UHGV virus genome: UHGV-0805728
Direction: 5' to 3' (one strand)
From: a virus
DNA length: 12,967 bases
Shown here: positions 3,091-12,510 of the stretch, piece after piece
Layout of the letters: every line of letters begins with the position of its first letter
Position numbering within the stretch: the first letter of the stretch is position 1
Translations under genes and position numbers: made by a program
The notes under the pieces: generated by a model
The model's database searches: none
What the model saw: only the letters and a program-made list of their open reading frames with translations
Told to the model about the DNA's origin: nothing

Positions 3091-3104
3091 GCAAATCTCC
3101 AGAT

Positions 3105-3130
3105 CATAAAAGCCCTCCGAAGAGGGCTTT
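3105..3130 (-). terminator. intrinsic-terminator-like hairpin with UUCG tetraloop between the ClpP-like gene and the methyltransferase gene
   Basis: Perfect 9-bp inverted repeat, plus strand aaagccctc (3109-3117) cgaa gagggcttt (3122-3130); as minus-strand RNA AAAGCCCUC-UUCG-GAGGGCUUU followed by UAUGAU. It sits 12 nt after the stop at 3142-3144. Confidence 0.45.
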
Positions 3131-3855: not shown

Positions 3856-4187
3856 ATCCCTTCAGCATGTACAACAACGCTTGCCTGAGACTCGCGGAAT
3901 GCCTGTAGATATGCCATTGCAATGTGCACGCAACCACCAGGGCTATTGATGATCACCCGAATGCTTTCTTCCGGCTGAGCCATACGGATCGTCTGCAGAC
4001 GAGACATATGATCTTGTAGGTCTTCCAAGTCGTCGATATAAAGAACGTGGTCAACAACAGGTGTTGGGTAGCTATATGTCTCCATAATACCACCTGGCAT
4101 ACCAAACATTTTATTACTCATCGGTTCGAAGCCGTTCTGTTTTTCTTTCATGCCGTGTACCATGGTGCTGCGAGGTGTTAAATTCAT
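3669..4187 (-). CDS. ClpP-family serine peptidase, N-terminal and catalytic portion (first frame of a frame-disrupted gene)
   Basis: ORF-track 172 aa with IINSPGG, GMCCSAGT (Ser-motif region) and FHYYQGG (His-motif region), collinear with E. coli ClpP INSPGG...GQAASMGA...IHQPLGG from memory; ATG 4187 preceded by TAAGGACC. The frame stops before the C-terminal part of the fold. Confidence 0.7.
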   Translation of the reverse strand: MNLTPRSTMVHGMKEKQNGFEPMSNKMFGMPGGIMETYSYPTPVVDHVLYIDDLEDLQDHMSRLQTIRMAQPEESIRVIINSPGGCVHIAMAYLQAFRESQASVVVHAEGMCCSAGTILWLGCKERTVAPDTEFMFHYYQGGTYGNGVNMNTQVSYWKKRFERLIEKSTVGC

Positions 4188-6487: not shown

Positions 6488-6600
6488 AGATACTCCGTAC
6501 CACATTCAGGGCAATACCAAATAAAATCATCCAGCGCCTTGCACCAACGAAGATTACAATGACAACCGCACTTGCAAATTTTATAAATACCTGTAGACAT
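6484..6600 (-). CDS. small Cys-rich zinc-ribbon-like protein (38 aa)
   Basis: ATG 6600 preceded by GAGG at about 8 nt; product MSTGIYKICKCGCHCNLRWCKALDDFIWYCPECGTEYL with 7 Cys (CKCGCHC...CPEC); stop overlaps the nrdG ATG (ATGA). Not in ORF track (under 60 aa). Confidence 0.4.
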   Translation of the reverse strand: MSTGIYKICKCGCHCNLRWCKALDDFIWYCPECGTEYL

Positions 6601-6630
6601 ACTGCACCTCATAGTTCACTGTGTATCAAC

Positions 6631-6660
6631 AATATGCCACATCCTTGTGACTTTTGTCAA
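6631..6660 (-). promoter_or_regulatory. candidate sigma70-type promoter P3 (perfect -35 TTGACA, weak -10 CATATT or TATTGT)
   Basis: TTGACA at 6660-6655 begins 3 nt after the nrdD stop, as in P1 and P2; the -10 element is only a 4/6 match. Confidence 0.3.
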
Positions 6661-6663
6661 GCA

Positions 6664-6903
6664 TCAGCAACCACAACTTCCATAGTGCTTAACTCGCTCG
6701 ATAACTTCAGCTTGCTTGCCTCTATTGTAAGGACGTGAGTTAGGACTGGAAAGGTATCCAGACACACGTCGAATTACACTGATCGTTCCCTCTTCGTGGT
6801 TTCCACAGTCTGGACATACAAAGCCTTTAGCTGTCGCGCTGAACTCACCAGAGAAACCACACTTGAGACATTTATCCACGGGCTGGTTAATACCAAAATA
6901 CAT
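6664..6903 (-). CDS. nrdD: anaerobic ribonucleotide reductase NrdD, C-terminal glycyl-radical/zinc-ribbon segment (third frame piece)
   Basis: YFGINQPVDKCLKCGFSGEF...CPDCGNH...RRVSGYL matches the recalled E. coli NrdD C-terminus (YMGINVPVDRCFECGFTGEF...CPKCGNH...RRVCGYLG); its frame is open only from 6909 and overlaps the central ORF. Confidence 0.8.
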   Translation of the reverse strand: MYFGINQPVDKCLKCGFSGEFSATAKGFVCPDCGNHEEGTISVIRRVSGYLSSPNSRPYNRGKQAEVIERVKHYGSCGC

Positions 6904-8555
6904 AATGTGTTATACCCGAAGTCAACAAGAGCCTCTAAAGCATCCAGGTTGTTTTTCAGGTTAGGTGTCTCTATGTATCCAATGTTGCCACCAGAGGAGA
7001 TCATAGCAAAACCTTCTTCATACTTCCACTTATCAAAAGGTGAACTATTGATCCATACTGGTTGGTGGAAACTGTTGGTGATATATTCATGCTCGTGCTT
7101 CAATACCTCAGGATATTCACGATCCAGACAGGTTGCAGCTTTGTAGCATAAGCTTTCAGAAGGGGTGCCGTACAAGCTGAATGCTAGACCACTTTCCTTT
7201 TTGTACCGATCACAAGCATCTTTCATGTGCTGAAGGATTCCAAGAGCTAAAGCCTTGTCTCCCTCTCTCCCCAAAATCTGACAGGTTTCATACACACCAA
7301 TATACCCAATACTGATGGAAGCGTACCCGTCATAGAAGAGTTTATCAATACTCTCTTCAGGATCCAAGCGAGCAAGAGCGCCTTCACACCACATGATGGG
7401 GTTCTGACCTGCCTTTGTCCCTTTTAGGCGGTTAACCCTTACAAGGTGAGCTTCATATGCCAAATCCAGATACTCGTCAAGAACGGTAAAGAAGTCAACA
7501 CCTTCTGTTTTAGCTTTTGCTGCAATCATTGGTAGGTTGAGGCTAACAACACCCAAGTTGAATCTGCCGAGGTATTTCTCCTCACCTGTTTCTAAGTCAT
7601 TGTATTTGCTAAGAAAACTCCGGCAACCCATGCTCGTTACTTTGCCATCTGTAGAACCTGTCACCTTACGATTTAGCGGAACAGAAACAAAGTCAGGATA
7701 AATTCGCTCTGCAGAGCATTCCAGAGCTAATCGTTTCAAATCATAGTTAGGATCCTCAGGGTTCATGTTGACACCCTCTTCTAAGAAGAACAGCACTTTA
7801 GGGAACACAGGTGTGATCCGTTCTTCACCAAGACCCATTTTGTGGACTTTCAGGTAGTTTTTGGTAATCATTCTACCAAATACCGAGGTATCAAGTCCTA
7901 AACTTAATGTTATGAACGGAGTTTGCCCGTTGACAGAAGTTAATGTGTTGATTTGATAAAGCAACGTCTGCATACTGTCAAACACGTCTTTATCGGTCAT
8001 CTGCATTGCAACGCCTTCAGCATCCGGCAACCAATGCTCCTGACAAAATTTAAGGTTCTTCTCATAGGTAGCTTCAGCATACTGTGCCAGATAATGATCA
8101 ATATGGCTCATAGTCTGACCACCATATTGAGCACTAGCCACTGCACTAGAGATTTGGCTAAGGATTGTTGTTGCAACCCCTATTGACTTAGGCTTGCTGA
8201 CATGGGCGTTACCAATGTTGAATCCGTTTTCCAGCATATCTGGATAATTTACCAAACAACAGTTTGTTAGAGGGCTGATCAGATAGTCAAGATCATGTAC
8301 ATGGATGAAGCCTTTTATTGTGCTCTTCGGAGACACGGTCTGGCAGGATCTGTGTTGATGCAAGGTGTTTGCTAAGGATGCCTGCAAGCAGGTCACGATG
8401 AGTGTGTACATGATTGGTAGGCTTATTTGCGTTTTCTTTTGTAAATTCATCACAAGTGCGATCCAAGAAGCCACTAATATCTGCAAGAAGTTTTCCACCT
8501 GCCTCTCTGTTATTATCCCTTGTCTGTCTGTATTGGATGTATTCTCTGGCTGCAC
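6774..8555 (-). CDS. nrdD: anaerobic ribonucleotide reductase NrdD, central catalytic segment (second frame piece)
   Basis: From about 8315 the frame reads KGFIHVHDLDY...NIGNAHVSKPKSIG...QYGGQT, collinear with recalled E. coli NrdD (GDIHYHDLDY...MGNAEIEPPKSIS...IYGGTT). The first ~80 and last ~43 residues of the 593-aa ORF look out-of-frame. Confidence 0.85.
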   Translation of the reverse strand: MQPENTSNTDRQGIITERQVENFLQILVASWIALVMNLQKKTQISLPIMYTLIVTCLQASLANTLHQHRSCQTVSPKSTIKGFIHVHDLDYLISPLTNCCLVNYPDMLENGFNIGNAHVSKPKSIGVATTILSQISSAVASAQYGGQTMSHIDHYLAQYAEATYEKNLKFCQEHWLPDAEGVAMQMTDKDVFDSMQTLLYQINTLTSVNGQTPFITLSLGLDTSVFGRMITKNYLKVHKMGLGEERITPVFPKVLFFLEEGVNMNPEDPNYDLKRLALECSAERIYPDFVSVPLNRKVTGSTDGKVTSMGCRSFLSKYNDLETGEEKYLGRFNLGVVSLNLPMIAAKAKTEGVDFFTVLDEYLDLAYEAHLVRVNRLKGTKAGQNPIMWCEGALARLDPEESIDKLFYDGYASISIGYIGVYETCQILGREGDKALALGILQHMKDACDRYKKESGLAFSLYGTPSESLCYKAATCLDREYPEVLKHEHEYITNSFHQPVWINSSPFDKWKYEEGFAMISSGGNIGYIETPNLKNNLDALEALVDFGYNTLCILVLTSPWINVSSVVSLVSSARQLKALYVQTVETTKRERSV

Positions 8556-8787
8556 ATTTTAAACCCATATCCATAAGAGCATCTTCAACAAGGATATGGA
8601 TATTTTTTACAGAGATTGTGCCCTGATCGGCTGGTAGATTGTTAGCAACAGCTTCATTAACCGCGCAGGCGATCCGGTAAGCTTCTTCTTCAGTATGTCC
8701 AGACTCAAGTAAGGCGGACTCTGCCGCCTTGATCACCTTAATTCCGTTATAGACCTCTTCTCTACCGTCTCGTTTTACAACTTTCAC
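8293..8787 (-). CDS. nrdD: anaerobic ribonucleotide reductase NrdD, N-terminal ATP-cone segment (first frame piece)
   Basis: MKVVKRDGREEVY... and ENANKPTNHVHTHRDLLAGILSKH match the NrdD N-terminus (recalled E. coli NENANKDSKVIPTQRDLLAGIVAKH); ATG 8787 overlaps the nrdC stop (ATGA); frame ends at 8293 right after an A4 run. Confidence 0.8.
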   Translation of the reverse strand: MKVVKRDGREEVYNGIKVIKAAESALLESGHTEEEAYRIACAVNEAVANNLPADQGTISVKNIHILVEDALMDMGLKCAAREYIQYRQTRDNNREAGGKLLADISGFLDRTCDEFTKENANKPTNHVHTHRDLLAGILSKHLASTQILPDRVSEEHNKRLHPCT

Positions 8788-9062
8788 TTTTTCTCTCCAA
8801 AATTGTTCTTAACAAAAGAGATGAAATCGTCAGCACCACCAATGTGGACACTGTCAAGGTCGCTTTCTAAGAAGATTTGAGGTAACGTTCTGGGAACAAT
8901 TGGGCTACACTTCTTAATAAGCTCTTCTTTTGTATAGCCCTCCCCTAGCGTCTTGTATACAAAAGGTAGACCTTTACTGACTGCAAATTCTTTTGCTCTT
9001 ACACAATGTGGACAATTATCCTTACCGTAAATAATGATGAAAAAAGATTTTTCACAACTCAT
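8784..9062 (-). CDS. nrdC: glutaredoxin-like redoxin (92 aa)
   Basis: CPHC active-site motif near the N-terminus, TLPQIF (cis-Pro region) and HIGGADDF (GG motif), positioned between nrdB and nrdD. Confidence 0.8.
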   Translation of the reverse strand: MSCEKSFFIIIYGKDNCPHCVRAKEFAVSKGLPFVYKTLGEGYTKEELIKKCSPIVPRTLPQIFLESDLDSVHIGGADDFISFVKNNFGEKK

Positions 9063-9065
9063 ATA

Positions 9066-10154
9066 TTAAAACTCCCAAATTTCTTCTTCAGCGTCGTTAA
9101 CAGTTGTGTTGACGCGGTAGTCAGTGTTCGACATTTCTTGGTTCGCCGTCTGTTGCAATGAAGGTTTCATCCACACCTGCATAAACGGTAGCGGGTCCTT
9201 TGTTGGCGGCACAAAGTCTTTGTCGATGTCGTAGTAATCATAAATCGGTGAGCAGTTATAGTCAACCCATTCTTTAAGCAACGGTGAGTTAAGACCTATA
9301 ATCGCTCTTCCTTCGCTGAAAATATAGTCACTCCAACCGTACTCCTTGGTTCGTACTTCATCAAGAATCTCTTTTAACTCTCCCTTTATCTCAAGGAAGC
9401 TTTTCTCCCATGCTGGATCATTAAGCAGGATATCAATGATGGCAAAATCACCTTTCGAATGCAGCATTTCGTCAAGCATGATTTTTTGAACAAGCTGCGC
9501 CACCTGAACAAAAATACCCTGTTCAGCTACTGCGAAAGTGCATGCAAAACTTGCAATAAACTCAATACTCTCCAGAGCTAAAAGTGCAAAAAGCGCTCTA
9601 AGAATGCATTTCCGTACAATATCTTCTTCAACACTGGAAGGATCCAGTCGGTATTTTGCACCAATAACCTCAAGCTCTTGCATATATTTGACAATAACCC
9701 CAGATCTGCTTAGCACGTTCTGGTTTTCCTGAATTTCTTCTATGATCTCGCGAGCATTAGGTAGGCACTGTCTAACAATCTCTGAGTAAGTAAGTGCGTG
9801 AAGAACTTCAATCTCCGACTGCTTCATCAACAGAGCGAAAAGCTCACTATTAGTGATGAATGGTGAAAAGAGGCAGATGATTGATCTTGCCGCAACGCTA
9901 TCAGCCTCCCATTGCCACATCAAGGTCTGCACCATCACGTCATAAGTTGACTTTGAGCATGTTACAAAATCTGAAATAGATTGCGACAAATCCACTTCAT
10001 CCTCTGCCCAATCCTGTTCTTTTTGTTTTTTATACAGTTCAAACAGTTGTGGGTATTTTTTATTGATAGAGTCATACATCCCCATTTGCTGTCCAAGAAA
10101 CAGAGGATAGTCACCAGTTTTATGAGCGGTGTTCTCAGCATTAAATACAGCCAT
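9066..10154 (-). CDS. nrdB: ribonucleotide reductase class Ia small (beta) subunit (362 aa)
   Basis: Full-length collinearity with E. coli NrdB from memory, including ESIEFIASFACTFAVAE (iron-ligand region; E. coli EAIRFYVSFACSFAFAE) and the acidic C-terminal tail ...EEEIWEF; ATG 10154 preceded by AGAGG. Confidence 0.9.
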   Translation of the reverse strand: MAVFNAENTAHKTGDYPLFLGQQMGMYDSINKKYPQLFELYKKQKEQDWAEDEVDLSQSISDFVTCSKSTYDVMVQTLMWQWEADSVAARSIICLFSPFITNSELFALLMKQSEIEVLHALTYSEIVRQCLPNAREIIEEIQENQNVLSRSGVIVKYMQELEVIGAKYRLDPSSVEEDIVRKCILRALFALLALESIEFIASFACTFAVAEQGIFVQVAQLVQKIMLDEMLHSKGDFAIIDILLNDPAWEKSFLEIKGELKEILDEVRTKEYGWSDYIFSEGRAIIGLNSPLLKEWVDYNCSPIYDYYDIDKDFVPPTKDPLPFMQVWMKPSLQQTANQEMSNTDYRVNTTVNDAEEEIWEF

Positions 10155-10165
10155 TATTCTACCTC

Positions 10166-10186
10166 TAAAATGGGGCCGAAGCCCCC
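10166..10186 (-). terminator. GC hairpin with UUCG tetraloop plus U4 tract between nrdA and nrdB (terminator or attenuator-like)
   Basis: Plus strand ggggc (10172-10176) cgaa gcccc (10181-10185); as minus-strand RNA GGGGC-UUCG-GCCCC followed by AUUUUAG, ending about 12 nt before the nrdB ATG. Confidence 0.4.
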
Positions 10187-10193
10187 TTTAAAA

Positions 10194-11507
10194 TTACAGT
10201 GCACAACTTTCGCAGTATGGATCTTCAACTGAACTATCTGCGATCAAAGGATAGTTCTTTCTGGTTTCATCTTCAGCCTGTTTCTTGGCATGAAGTTCCT
10301 CTGCCAGTGAGTCACCAGCACCAACCCTAGAGTTTAAATAATACCATGTCTTCATCCCGAATTTAGTGGCACGGATAAGGTACCCTAGTTGCTCCTTCAT
10401 TGAAATTTTACCATCTTTCAACTTGGTGTAATCTATGTATAAATCAGCGCTGATTGCCTGACCTGTGAATTTTTGAATCACGGCATACATATCGATCATG
10501 TCGTTGGTATCAACGTCCCAAGCCGAAGTGTAATACTCTTTCAACTCATCGTATTCAGGAACGATAAACAGCACCTGCCCTTGTGGAGACTTTTTAAAGA
10601 TAATGTGCTCACGGACAGGATAAACCCCGTTAGTGGTGTTTGTTGCCAGCGAAGAGCTTTCATTAGGCATATATGCTTCAAGAACGCTATTACGTAGCCC
10701 ACCATTTTCAATGATTTGTTTACGTAACCCTTCCCAATCCTGTTTAAGAGAAGGATCTTTCACCACACTGTCGACCTCTTTGTTATAGGTGTCGATTGGT
10801 AACCAACCCTCCGGGTATTTTGTTTTATGCATCCACTCACAGACACCACGCTCTTTTGCCAATCGTAAACTTGCTTTGTGCAAGCTGTAGCTGTGAAGCT
10901 CTGCAAGATCATGGACAAGCTGTTTACTTTCCGGAGATCCGTAAGTAACCTTGTGGCTGGCAATAAAATGTGCAACATTGGTAAGGCCAACCCCGATAGA
11001 TCTGCGTTTTTTAACCGTGCTCTCCATATTCTCATACGGATATGTCATGATTTCCATAACATTGTCAATCATAAGCACCGTGTAGTATGCAACATCTTCA
11101 TACTCCTCTGGGGTAACCCTCCCAGCTACAAGAGATGATAGGAAGCACAATGCAACCTCACCATCATCAGCATCGTACTTGAAGATATTACGCATATCTG
11201 AATAGCCTTTTGTCGGAAGGGCTATCTCGGCACACAGGTTGCTTGAATAGATTACATCTTTAAAAGGTGTATGTCTATTCATCTCGTCTGTCCAGTATAC
11301 GTACAGTCTTCCTACCTCAGTACGCTGCGTGATAAGTTCAGCAGCAAGATCTCTAGCACGGATCCATGTTTTAGGAATACTGTCATCTTTAGCGATCCGA
11401 TCAACCTCTGCATCAAACTCTTCCATAGACATGGTGAAGATGCCTTCATGTAGCTGAGGTGCGTGCTTATAAGAAACAAGCATCCAATCTAAATTTTTAG
11501 TCCACAC
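10194..11507 (-). CDS. nrdA: ribonucleotide reductase class Ia large (alpha) subunit, C-terminal catalytic segment (second frame piece)
   Basis: 437-aa ORF with SNLCAEIALPT (active-site Cys loop; recalled E. coli SNLCLEIALPT) and collinear downstream sequence; its GTG at 11507 has no ribosome-binding site. Confidence 0.9.
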   Translation of the reverse strand: MWTKNLDWMLVSYKHAPQLHEGIFTMSMEEFDAEVDRIAKDDSIPKTWIRARDLAAELITQRTEVGRLYVYWTDEMNRHTPFKDVIYSSNLCAEIALPTKGYSDMRNIFKYDADDGEVALCFLSSLVAGRVTPEEYEDVAYYTVLMIDNVMEIMTYPYENMESTVKKRRSIGVGLTNVAHFIASHKVTYGSPESKQLVHDLAELHSYSLHKASLRLAKERGVCEWMHKTKYPEGWLPIDTYNKEVDSVVKDPSLKQDWEGLRKQIIENGGLRNSVLEAYMPNESSSLATNTTNGVYPVREHIIFKKSPQGQVLFIVPEYDELKEYYTSAWDVDTNDMIDMYAVIQKFTGQAISADLYIDYTKLKDGKISMKEQLGYLIRATKFGMKTWYYLNSRVGAGDSLAEELHAKKQAEDETRKNYPLIADSSVEDPYCESCAL

Positions 11508-12510
11508 GGTTGATAAACGACCTATTAATACCTATGGAATAATCCATAGTGTTGATTCTTTTTGAAGCAACAGTCATAGGGTTTCTCAAACGGATTAGCT
11601 CATCAATCTGAGGGTCCAGTGCAAGGAATGACACTGTTGCCGAACCACCACGGGATTGTTGTCTATTCTCCTTAACCCCGGCATCAATACCACGATAATA
11701 TGGAAGCTTGCCCATATGTTTAATCGTGTTACCACGAACACCATCGCCTGCAGATCTTGACGATAAATAGTAGCCAATACCTGCTTGGTTAACCGTCATT
11801 GTGTACGCAACTTCCCGTGCCACACCAATAGACTTTGCTGTATCGTCAGCTTTTATTACGCAACAAGATGCATACCCTGTCTTACCTGTGCGTAGACCGT
11901 TTAAGTACGGTGTCGGAGCATTGATCTTTAAGTCTGACAGATAAGTGTATAATTTTACAACATCGTTAATACGGCGTTCTTTCGGCATATTCTTCATGAC
12001 AGCCATCGCTATCCCCATAAACATCATCTGGGGAGATTCAAACAGGGTGTCTTTAAGAGTATCCTTGATCCCGTATTTGTCACGAAACTGTTTAAGGACT
12101 GCATAGCCATAACCGAGATCTTTACTGTGATCAATAACAGTATTTAAAGTGTTTAACTCAGTAAAGCTATAACCCATATCCTCCCAATACCCTTTCTCAA
12201 CCATGGTATTGTAGAATGAGGGTAAGGAAGGGATCTTTGTAAATCCTCCAAAAGCCTCTTTGTAGATCTGACCAATAAGAACACGACCAGCCATACGGGA
12301 ATGTGCTTCGTCTTTACGGCTAACACATGAATCTATAATAGCCTGGTTAACTTCTTTGGTTGTGCATCCATCATACAGACGTTTGTATGCATCCATTGCA
12401 ATATGTGACCAATTGCCGTTACCGTCGTCACCGAAAATAGCTGCCTTATTTAAACGTTCTGGATCGAATTCAACTTCACATCCGTTACTTTTAATTACTT
12501 TGGTGATCAA
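11497..12510 (-). CDS. nrdA: ribonucleotide reductase class Ia large (alpha) subunit, N-terminal segment with ATP cone (first frame piece)
   Basis: 337-aa ORF starting MITKVIKSNGCEVEFDPERL (ATP-cone-like) and ending at ...INTMDYSIGINRSFINRVD (recalled E. coli ...RHMDYGVQINKLMYTRL); TTG start at 12510 preceded by GGAGGAAG at 7 nt spacing. Confidence 0.9.
   Translation of the reverse strand: MITKVIKSNGCEVEFDPERLNKAAIFGDDGNGNWSHIAMDAYKRLYDGCTTKEVNQAIIDSCVSRKDEAHSRMAGRVLIGQIYKEAFGGFTKIPSLPSFYNTMVEKGYWEDMGYSFTELNTLNTVIDHSKDLGYGYAVLKQFRDKYGIKDTLKDTLFESPQMMFMGIAMAVMKNMPKERRINDVVKLYTYLSDLKINAPTPYLNGLRTGKTGYASCCVIKADDTAKSIGVAREVAYTMTVNQAGIGYYLSSRSAGDGVRGNTIKHMGKLPYYRGIDAGVKENRQQSRGGSATVSFLALDPQIDELIRLRNPMTVASKRINTMDYSIGINRSFINRVD

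What the first reader, a model, noticed from the sequence alone, without database searches (positions are those of the whole stretch)
10166..10190. UUCG-tetraloop GC hairpin plus U-tract inside the nrdA-nrdB junction
A terminator-like structure (GGGGC-UUCG-GCCCC then AUUUU) sits in the 40-nt gap between the nrdA stop and the nrdB ribosome-binding site. Because alpha and beta subunits are needed together, full termination here is unlikely; it may attenuate, stabilise the upstream mRNA 3' end, or mask the nrdB ribosome-binding site. The second UUCG hairpin at 3109-3130 has a near-identical design.
Basis: seen in the sequence. Interest (0 to 1): 0.45.

Follow-up and report, generated by a model that had tools for sequence, protein, structure and literature searches.

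The report
Leaky terminator hairpin between nrdA and nrdB
The hairpin is real and conserved, but it is an ordinary feature already published as a predicted terminator (t109 of phage rV5): a short, very stable RNA hairpin between two genes of one operon that probably stops only some transcripts and protects RNA ends.

Summary
The window comes from an rV5-like coliphage (Vequintavirus), with its genes on the minus strand. The hairpin GGGGC-UUCG-GCCCC (10185-10172), followed by A-UUUU, lies in the 39-nt gap between the nrdA stop and the nrdB start. The second hairpin (3130-3109) is also as described. Chance does not explain it: 0 of 500 shuffles gave such a UUCG hairpin.

It is not new. Both hairpins are listed as predicted rho-independent terminators t109 and t122 in the 2013 rV5 paper. 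GenBank records EdH4 and Schickermooser annotate them as terminators.

What the comparison adds:
- The hairpin sits at this junction across Vequintavirinae and Stephanstirmvirinae, always 5-8 nt after the upstream stop and 6-10 nt before the nrdB Shine-Dalgarno sequence.
- The variants all keep a stable sense-strand RNA hairpin: a GAAA loop, a U·G closing pair, and one different stem.
- Two lineages lack the U-tract.
- RBS masking is not conserved.

No room or predicted promoter separates the hairpin from nrdB, so read-through is obligatory.

Best reading: a weak, probably ribosome-suppressed intrinsic terminator that also acts as an RNA-end stabiliser. This is inferred, with no transcript data. 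Interest is low.

The parts
10194..12510 (-). nrdA (class Ia ribonucleotide reductase alpha subunit). In this window it is split into two ORFs (11497-12510 and 10194-11507) by a 1-nt insertion near 11501. The stop codon is TAA at 10196-10194.
   Evidence: ORF list. Pfam Ribonuc_red_lgN/lgC is split at profile positions 125/127. Relatives carry a single 2316-nt CDS. The indel was located.
10186..10193 (-). UUUUAAAG spacer between the nrdA stop and the stem (8 nt). Its AAA can pair with the downstream UUU and extend the helix.
   Evidence: The stop-to-stem spacer is 5-8 nt in all 14 junctions compared.
10172..10185 (-). Hairpin GGGGC-UUCG-GCCCC: five G:C pairs and a cUUCGg tetraloop.
   Evidence: -9.6 kcal/mol. 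0 of 500 shuffles. Orthologous to rV5 t109 and to the EdH4 'terminator' annotation.
10166..10171 (-). A-UUUU-A: a short U-tract directly after the stem, abutting the Shine-Dalgarno sequence.
   Evidence: Tails in relatives carry 4-7 U of 9, except L010 (3) and ChuuTotoro (2).
10162..10165 (-). Shine-Dalgarno GAGG of nrdB, 6 nt after the stem and 7 nt before the AUG.
9066..10154 (-). nrdB (ribonucleotide reductase beta subunit), followed by glutaredoxin (8784-9062), nrdD and nrdG on the same strand.
3109..3130 (-). Second cUUCGg hairpin, AAAGCCCUC-UUCG-GAGGGCUUU, between the ClpP-like protease stop (3144-3142) and the N6-adenine methyltransferase start (3090). It is followed by U then AUGAUCU, and the SD GGAG at 3100-3097.
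   Evidence: It corresponds to rV5 t122 and to an EdH4 terminator annotation. It is kept exactly in relatives with 72-73% identical methyltransferase and is absent in more distant ones.

Best explanation
This is an operon-internal, weak Rho-independent terminator of the phage 'intercistronic cUUCGg hairpin' type. It is the orthologue of predicted terminator t109 of phage rV5.

Proposed mechanism (inferred, not measured):
1. Host RNA polymerase transcribes from a promoter upstream of nrdA.
2. When the 14-nt hairpin folds in the nascent sense RNA over the short A-UUUU tract, a minority of polymerases release. This gives nrdA-ending transcripts whose 3' end the very stable hairpin protects from 3'-exonucleases.
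3. Most polymerases read through. The U-tract is short, and a ribosome finishing nrdA only 8 nt upstream can keep the stem from folding.
4. Read-through lets nrdB, which has no promoter between the hairpin and its start codon, and the downstream glutaredoxin, nrdD and nrdG genes be expressed.
5. In read-through RNA the folded hairpin stays as a structural barrier or insulator between the two cistrons.

Net effect: modest tuning of the alpha:beta (and downstream) transcript ratio and of RNA stability, not an on/off switch.
For: Shown:
- A stable sense-strand GC hairpin followed by a U run lies directly after a stop codon, and chance does not produce it.
- ARNold/MFOLD independently called the orthologous site as terminator t109 in rV5. 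It is annotated as a terminator in EdH4 and Schickermooser.
- In the EdH4 genome all 6 UUCG hairpins are on the sense strand, and all are annotated intergenic terminators. Shuffles give 1.25 on both strands together.
- The element is conserved at the same junction in 14 distinct lineages of two subfamilies.
- The variants keep an RNA hairpin on the sense strand. TH18 has the same stem with a GAAA loop. phi92 has a U·G closing pair, which would be a C·A mismatch on the other strand. ChuuTotoro has a different 7-bp GC stem.
- 12 of 14 lineages keep 4-7 U in the 9 nt after the stem.

Leakiness (inferred):
- Only 17 nt separate the hairpin from the nrdB AUG, and rV5 has no predicted promoter between P107 and P118.
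- The U-tract has 4 U, and the last two stem bases are CC rather than the GC of the GC(U)7RU motif of strong terminators.
- In EdH4, terminators within 40 nt of the next start codon have weaker U-tracts than the others (4.9 vs 6.1 T of 8, one-sided Mann-Whitney p = 0.047).
- In E. coli, a terminator placed 5-9 bp after a stop codon is almost fully repressed by the trailing ribosome (PMC4824070).

Precedent: T4 has an experimentally mapped weak terminator (30-50% termination) between nrdA and nrdB (PMC2790892).
Against: - There are no transcript 3'-end or coverage data for any rV5-like phage, so termination is entirely predicted.
- The consensus scan here does not call the site.
- The U-tract is minimal, and the bubble-edge positions match only partly (CC at -11/-10, AG at -2/-1, against the motif).
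- Two lineages (metagenomic L010 and Serratia phage ChuuTotoro) keep a hairpin at this position with no U-tract. The hairpin can therefore be retained without canonical termination.
- The stem shows essentially no covariation: 3 of 5 pairs never vary, with one compensatory cell. The structural support comes from conservation and loop swaps, not from covariation statistics.
- The 8-nt stop-to-stem distance predicts that termination could be close to nil on translated RNA.
Confidence: 0.6

Rival explanations
1. It is purely an RNA stability or processing element, with negligible termination. The hairpin blocks 3'-to-5' exonucleases, which protects the nrdA segment. After endonucleolytic cleavage it may also act as a 5'-proximal protective hairpin for nrdB mRNA. 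The U run is only the A/U-rich leader of the nrdB ribosome-binding site.
For: - The hairpin is retained without a U-tract in L010 and ChuuTotoro.
- It stays next to the nrdB SD (8-10 nt) when an HNH endonuclease gene is inserted between nrdA and the hairpin, in nieznany and phi92.
- A stop codon 5-8 nt upstream should suppress termination.
- cUUCGg hairpins are reported to stabilise T4 mRNA (as summarised in PMC8948821).
- The host operon also has highly structured REP-type palindromes between nrdA and nrdB.
Against: - 12 of 14 lineages keep a U run directly after the stem, up to 7 U in nieznany, phi92 and Schickermooser.
- In unrelated viral contigs the same 14-mer is followed by at least 4 T of 8 in 57% of cases on the UUCG strand, against 34% for the mirror measure. 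This is the signature of a terminator module.
- The two roles are not exclusive.
Confidence: 0.25
2. It is a translational control element. The extended helix sequesters the nrdB Shine-Dalgarno sequence, or the hairpin plus U-rich tract acts as a standby or S1-binding enhancer, setting NrdB synthesis relative to NrdA.
For: - In the window the minimum-energy fold pairs UUUU (10193-10190) with AGAG, which overlaps the SD. The mean SD unpaired probability is 0.26.
- The stem-to-SD distance is constrained to 6-10 nt in all lineages.
Against: - The SD-pairing extension is made of weak A-U and G-U pairs and is not conserved. The SD unpaired probability ranges from 0.18 to 0.81, and the folds of relatives share no SD-containing helix.
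- The conserved stem ends about 18 nt upstream of the AUG, at the edge of a 30S footprint (established knowledge).
Confidence: 0.07
3. It is a DNA-level element, such as a homing-endonuclease target or insertion site or a recombination hotspot, or it is a chance palindrome without function.
For: - The nrdA-nrdB junction does receive homing endonuclease genes: HNH in nieznany and phi92 and mobE in T4.
Against: - All UUCG hairpins are strand-specific to the sense strand.
- phi92 has a U·G wobble that pairs only on the sense strand.
- TH18 swaps one stable RNA tetraloop class for another.
- 0 of 500 shuffles reproduce the hairpin.
- MobE's target is inside nrdB, not in the intergenic region (PMC2790892).
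Confidence: 0.03

Closest known systems
Predicted rho-independent terminators t109 and t122 of Escherichia phage rV5 (Kropinski et al. 2013, Virol J 10:76, Table S4)
   Same: Same sequences at the same gene junctions. t109 is GGGGCTTCGGCCCCATTTT, after gene 109 (nrdA). t122 is GCCCTCTTCGGAGGGCTTTTAT. The window is about 93% identical to rV5-like genomes. The same sites are annotated as 'putative transcriptional terminator' in EdH4.
   Different: Nothing substantive: this is the orthologue. The published call is a computer prediction only. The window has one extra G before the stem.
C(UUCG)G hairpins of phage intercistronic regions (Tuerk et al. 1988, PNAS 85:1364; known here through PMC8948821)
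   Same: A cUUCGg tetraloop closed by complementary flanks, in an intergenic position on the mRNA strand of a lytic coliphage. The exact 14-mer occurs in at least 120 unrelated viral contigs. In 54% of distinct contexts it lies directly upstream of an SD plus start codon, against 5.5% at random positions.
   Different: That class is defined by sequence and stability, not by one function. It was described in T4, which has no such hairpin at its own nrdA-nrdB region.
Weak intrinsic terminator inside mobE, between nrdA and nrdB of phage T4 (Wilson & Edgell 2009, NAR 37:7110)
   Same: A hairpin with a short poly(U) between the two RNR subunit genes in one polycistronic unit. It was shown by experiment to terminate only 30-50% of transcripts.
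   Different: The T4 element is not homologous. It has a 9-bp stem inside the mobE coding region, and an nrdB middle promoter downstream compensates for it. The authors state that T-even phages without mobE have no terminator in the junction. Here there is no room or predicted promoter between the hairpin and nrdB.
REP/BIME palindromes in the E. coli nrdA-nrdB intergenic region
   Same: The host operon also carries very stable hairpins between the alpha and beta genes: a 233-nt spacer at -118 kcal/mol (z = -5.9), with an Rfam naRNA4 (REP-derived) match at 76 bits. From general knowledge, REP elements act as mRNA 3'-end stabilisers and partial terminators.
   Different: There is no sequence relation. 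The window has no Rfam hit and no DNA similarity to E. coli. The phage element is a single 14-nt hairpin in a 39-nt spacer.
Ribosome-repressed terminators close to stop codons (lambda tR2 constructs; Li et al. 2016, NAR 44:2554)
   Same: The geometry matches: the hairpin starts 5-8 nt after the stop codon. In the E. coli experiments this distance lowered termination from about 90% to under 10% through the trailing ribosome.
   Different: Those were engineered reporters with a strong terminator. No such measurement exists for this element.

Membership tests
Rho-independent (intrinsic) terminator | GC-rich stem-loop formed by the nascent sense-strand RNA | tested here: met
   Five G:C pairs plus a UUCG loop at -9.6 kcal/mol. 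Stem pairing probability is 0.99 in a 130-nt context.
Rho-independent (intrinsic) terminator | U-tract of about 7-8 nt immediately 3' of the stem | tested here: inconclusive
   The tail AUUUUAGA has 4 U of 8. It fails the at-least-5-of-8 rule of the scan, yet ARNold accepted it in rV5, EdH4 and Schickermooser. Relatives have 4-7 U of 9, and two lineages have only 2-3.
Rho-independent (intrinsic) terminator | Bubble-edge motif GC at -11/-10 and RU at -2/-1 (HUB model, bioRxiv 10.64898/2026.05.29.728758) | tested here: not met
   The last two stem bases are CC. With that phasing -2/-1 is AG, so only -10C and -2R match (sequence, motif). This predicts weak termination. The criterion comes from a preprint.
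Rho-independent (intrinsic) terminator | Co-oriented with transcription, downstream of a stop codon | tested here: met
   The hairpin starts 8 nt after the nrdA TAA on the coding strand.
Rho-independent (intrinsic) terminator | RNA 3' ends map to the U-tract, in vivo or in vitro | not testable with these tools
   No transcriptome or 3'-end data for Vequintavirinae were found in the paper library.
C(UUCG)G intercistronic hairpins of phages (Tuerk et al. 1988 class) | C(UUCG)G flanked by complementary arms | tested here: met
   GGGGC-UUCG-GCCCC and GCCCUC-UUCG-GAGGGC.
C(UUCG)G intercistronic hairpins of phages (Tuerk et al. 1988 class) | Located in intergenic regions, on the mRNA strand | tested here: met
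   Both window hairpins are intergenic and on the sense strand. In EdH4, 6 of 6 are on the sense strand and intergenic.
REP/BIME elements (as in the host nrdA-nrdB spacer) | Sequence and structure match to the REP consensus (Rfam naRNA4/REP-derived model) | tested here: not met
   The window has no Rfam family at gathering threshold. The host spacer matches naRNA4 at 76 bits.
RBS-sequestering translational operator hairpin | The Shine-Dalgarno sequence or start codon lies inside the conserved helix | tested here: not met
   The conserved stem ends 6-10 nt before the SD. SD pairing is weak and lineage-specific.
T4 mobE-internal terminator | Homologous hairpin in the 5' end of a mobE gene between nrdA and nrdB | tested here: not met
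   The window has no mobE, and the T4 region has no comparable UUCG hairpin. This is a functional analogy only.

The most novel reading that the evidence does not exclude
The junction may be a conserved 'translation-gated' intercistronic cassette: stop codon, 5-8 nt, cUUCGg hairpin, U/AU-rich tract, SD. The hairpin would terminate only polymerases that are not closely followed by a ribosome finishing the upstream gene. Transcription of nrdB, glutaredoxin and the anaerobic reductase genes would then depend on productive translation of nrdA. The cassette would also have a second, termination-independent role (RNA-end protection or cistron insulation), which would explain its retention in lineages without a U-tract and its persistence next to nrdB when a homing endonuclease gene is inserted upstream.
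Probability: 0.2. Interest if true: 0.4.

Novelty: already known. Interest (0 to 1): 0.15.

Why it matters
The stakes are modest. If the hairpin is a leaky terminator, it sets the transcript ratio between the two ribonucleotide reductase subunits, and it gates every downstream nucleotide-metabolism gene that has no promoter of its own. That is useful for annotating and engineering rV5-like therapeutic phages.

The comparative result gives a clean natural system for testing two things:
- how ribosome proximity tunes weak terminators;
- whether such hairpins are kept for termination or for RNA stability.

The relevant features are the fixed geometry (5-8 nt after the stop codon, 6-10 nt before the SD) across two phage subfamilies, and retention of the hairpin in two lineages that lack a U-tract.

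It does not reveal a new kind of element.

Tried and rejected
- **Rfam scan of the window:** no family at gathering threshold.
- **Covariation test on 14 junctions:** the stem is almost invariant (3 of 5 pairs never vary, one compensatory cell, 34 of 500 shuffles as high). Covariation therefore neither proves nor disproves the structure.
- **Thermodynamic significance of the 71-nt context:** not significant (z = -1.26). Only the hairpin itself and its A/U extension stand out.
- **RBS masking:** rejected, because SD pairing is not conserved.
- **Junction-specific signature:** rejected. The 14-mer occurs once in EdH4 but in at least 120 unrelated viral contigs. Only one of those is next to an nrdB, and it is a contig already found.
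- **Homology with the T4, ICP1 or FelixO1 nrdA-nrdB junctions:** none of them has the hairpin.
- **DNA similarity of the phage nrdB region to E. coli genomes:** no match.
- **Literature search for transcriptomes of Vequintavirus or Vequintavirinae:** nothing usable.
- **Tuerk et al. 1988:** the paper could not be opened, so it is cited only through PMC8948821.
- **nrdD-nrdG spacer (6500-6670):** folded as a possible further element and found unremarkable (z = +0.43).

Full report
**Origin and gene context**

The whole 12,967-nt window matches rV5-like coliphages (Vequintavirinae, genus Vequintavirus). It is 98% identical to OX460980 and about 93% identical to more than 100 other genomes. All genes lie on the minus strand. 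Pfam confirms the following:
- NrdB: 9069-10154.
- The NrdA barrel domain: 10197-11507, continued in 11500-12510.
- Glutaredoxin: 8787-9062.

**The observation**

On the minus strand the sequence reads as follows:
- UAA, the nrdA stop (10196-10194).
- UUUUAAAG.
- GGGGC (10185-10181), UUCG (10180-10177), GCCCC (10176-10172).
- A, then UUUU (10170-10167), then A.
- GAGG, the Shine-Dalgarno sequence (10165-10162).
- UAGAAUA, then AUG, the nrdB start (10154).

The 14-mer folds at -9.6 kcal/mol. With its A/U extension it reaches -14.0 kcal/mol (z = -3.0). The 71-nt context alone is not exceptional.

No dinucleotide shuffle of the window (0 of 500) gave a hairpin of five G:C pairs closing a UUCG loop. 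With any 4-nt loop, 20 of 500 did.

The second hairpin (3130-3109, minus strand) sits between the ClpP-like protease gene and the methyltransferase gene, with the same layout. The in-house terminator scan does not call either site. At the nrdA-nrdB hairpin only 4 of the 8 bases after the stem are U.

**It is already described**

Table S4 of the rV5 genome paper (PMC3606486) lists both sites among 20 ARNold/MFOLD-predicted rho-independent terminators:
- t109: 84254..84272, GGGGCTTCGGCCCCATTTT, -14.2 kcal/mol.
- t122: GCCCTCTTCGGAGGGCTTTTAT, -14.9 kcal/mol.

GenBank record MK327930 (phage EdH4) annotates both as 'putative transcriptional terminator'. MK373788 (Schickermooser) annotates the nrdA-nrdB one. 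The same rV5 table lists promoters P107 (two genes upstream of nrdA) and then P118, with none between. I found no transcript-level data for this phage group.

**Genome-wide pattern**

EdH4 has 28 annotated terminators.
- Six have UUCG loops. A scan finds exactly these six, all on the sense strand. Shuffled genomes give 1.25 for both strands together.
- Of 26 terminators that lie between co-directional genes, 17 are within 40 nt of the next start codon, which leaves no room for a promoter.
- These 17 have weaker U-tracts than the other nine (4.9 vs 6.1 T of 8, one-sided Mann-Whitney p = 0.047).
- Half of the 26 begin within 10 nt of the upstream stop codon.

The nrdA-nrdB hairpin is thus one instance of a general design in this phage. 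It is also the shortest stem and has one of the weakest tails.

**Comparative anatomy**

I compared 14 distinct junctions.

*Conservation.* The GGGGC/GCCCC stem is present in Vequintavirus, Seunavirus and Mydovirus. It is also present in another subfamily, Stephanstirmvirinae (Phapecoctavirus Schickermooser and nieznany; Justusliebigvirus phi92). The flanks diverge freely.

*Variants.*
- TH18 has the same stem with a GAAA loop.
- NDO71 has a UUCU loop.
- phi92 has a U·G closing pair, which pairs only on the sense strand.
- Serratia phage ChuuTotoro has a different 7-bp hairpin (GGCGGGG-UUUAU-CCCCGCC).

*Covariation.* It is essentially absent because the stem hardly varies. The structural argument rests on conservation, on a swap between the two stable tetraloop classes, and on the strand-specific wobble pair.

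*Geometry.* The stem starts 5-8 nt after the upstream stop codon and ends 6-10 nt before the SD in every lineage.

*Homing endonuclease insertions.* In nieznany and phi92 an HNH endonuclease gene is inserted between nrdA and the hairpin. The hairpin stays next to nrdB and has a 7-U tail.

*U-tract.* Twelve lineages have 4-7 U in the 9 nt after the stem. L010 and ChuuTotoro have none to speak of.

*Absence elsewhere.* T4, ICP1 and FelixO1 have no hairpin at this junction.

*Second hairpin.* It is kept exactly in relatives whose methyltransferase is 72-73% identical, and is lost beyond that.

**The 14-mer is a generic module**

- In 57% of cases at least 4 T fall in the 8 nt downstream on the UUCG strand.
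- In 54% of distinct contexts it lies directly upstream of an SD plus start codon, against 5.5% at random positions.
- Only one of the 120 is next to an nrdB, and that contig had already been found.
- In a more distant phage group (L012-L017, L022) the same cassette sits two genes downstream of nrdB.

This matches the class of intercistronic C(UUCG)G hairpins described for T4 and many other phages (Tuerk et al. 1988, as summarised in PMC8948821).

**Mechanism**

*Shown.* The sense RNA can form a very stable hairpin followed by a short U run. The arrangement is under selection. nrdB has no room for a promoter of its own.

*Inferred.* The element is a weak intrinsic terminator that most polymerases read through. 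The reasons are:
- The U-tract has only 4 U.
- The stem ends in CC, not the GC of the GC(U)7RU motif of strong terminators (bioRxiv 10.64898/2026.05.29.728758).
- The stop codon is 8 nt upstream. At that distance a trailing ribosome lowered termination from about 90% to under 10% in E. coli reporters (PMC4824070).

Terminated or processed RNAs would end in a hairpin that resists exonucleases. The closest experimental precedent is T4. It has a weak terminator (30-50% termination) between nrdA and nrdB inside mobE, compensated there by a downstream nrdB promoter (PMC2790892). The host E. coli operon also carries very stable REP-type palindromes between nrdA and nrdB.

**Rivals**

- *Pure stability or processing element.* This is the main rival. 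It is favoured by the two lineages without a U-tract and by the predicted ribosome suppression. The retention of U runs in the other twelve lineages, and the terminator-like tails of the 14-mer elsewhere, count against it.
- *RBS masking.* Not supported. The SD-pairing extension seen in the window is weak and not conserved.
- *DNA-level or chance explanations.* These are contradicted by the strand specificity and the shuffle tests.

**Verdict**

The element is already known as a predicted terminator, and interest is low. The only mildly new points are its depth of conservation, its fixed geometry, and its persistence without a U-tract.

Noticed in passing
window 11501, 3685, 6909, 8313, 1227: Single-base indels occur in this window but not in its closest relative OX460980. 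Where compared (nrdA, ClpP-like gene), JeffSchatz also lacks them. They break nrdA into two ORFs (at 11501) and frameshift the ClpP-like protease gene (3685) and nrdD (6909, 8313). They are probably assembly errors. If the nrdA one is real, the ribosome would stop about 1.3 kb before the hairpin, and the ribosome-gating argument would not apply to this isolate.
   Followed up: partly
L036 1147-1803 (phage nieznany); L038 1-206 (phage phi92): An HNH homing-endonuclease gene is inserted between nrdA and the hairpin in Stephanstirmvirinae phages. The hairpin and a 7-U tail then follow the endonuclease gene and still precede nrdB. This parallels mobE between nrdA and nrdB in T4.
   Followed up: partly
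L001 8456-8989 (phage slur16) versus window 6664-8787: In slur16 and several relatives, an inserted HNH endonuclease gene splits nrdD into two annotated CDSs (possibly an intron or intein-type insertion). The window and JeffSchatz lack this insertion.
   Followed up: no
L012-L017, L022, around 3094-3107: Distant relatives (NrdB 51-53% identical) carry the identical cassette TAA-7 nt-GGGGCTTCGGCCCC-TTTTTAGATT-GAGGAG-ATG. It lies two genes downstream of nrdB, in front of a gene whose product begins MRILVTGGAGF (not identified here), not at the nrdA-nrdB junction.
   Followed up: partly
search hits (MG0656xx records): About 20 GenBank records named 'Campylobacter phage' (C15, A12a, C12 and others) are about 93% identical to this E. 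coli rV5-like window over its full length. This suggests mislabelled hosts or co-isolated coliphages.
   Followed up: no
EdH4 record positions 3871-3885 and 10218-10236 (L025): Two hairpins annotated as terminators have no U at all in the 8 nt after the stem (accaacca, agcacaaa). They are further examples of conserved-looking intercistronic hairpins that cannot be canonical terminators.
   Followed up: no
L170 352-584 (E. coli K-12 nrdA-nrdB spacer): The 233-nt host spacer is filled with REP-type palindromes: Rfam naRNA4 at 76 bits, -118 kcal/mol, z = -5.9. It also holds the tiny annotated gene yoaM on the opposite strand.
   Followed up: partly
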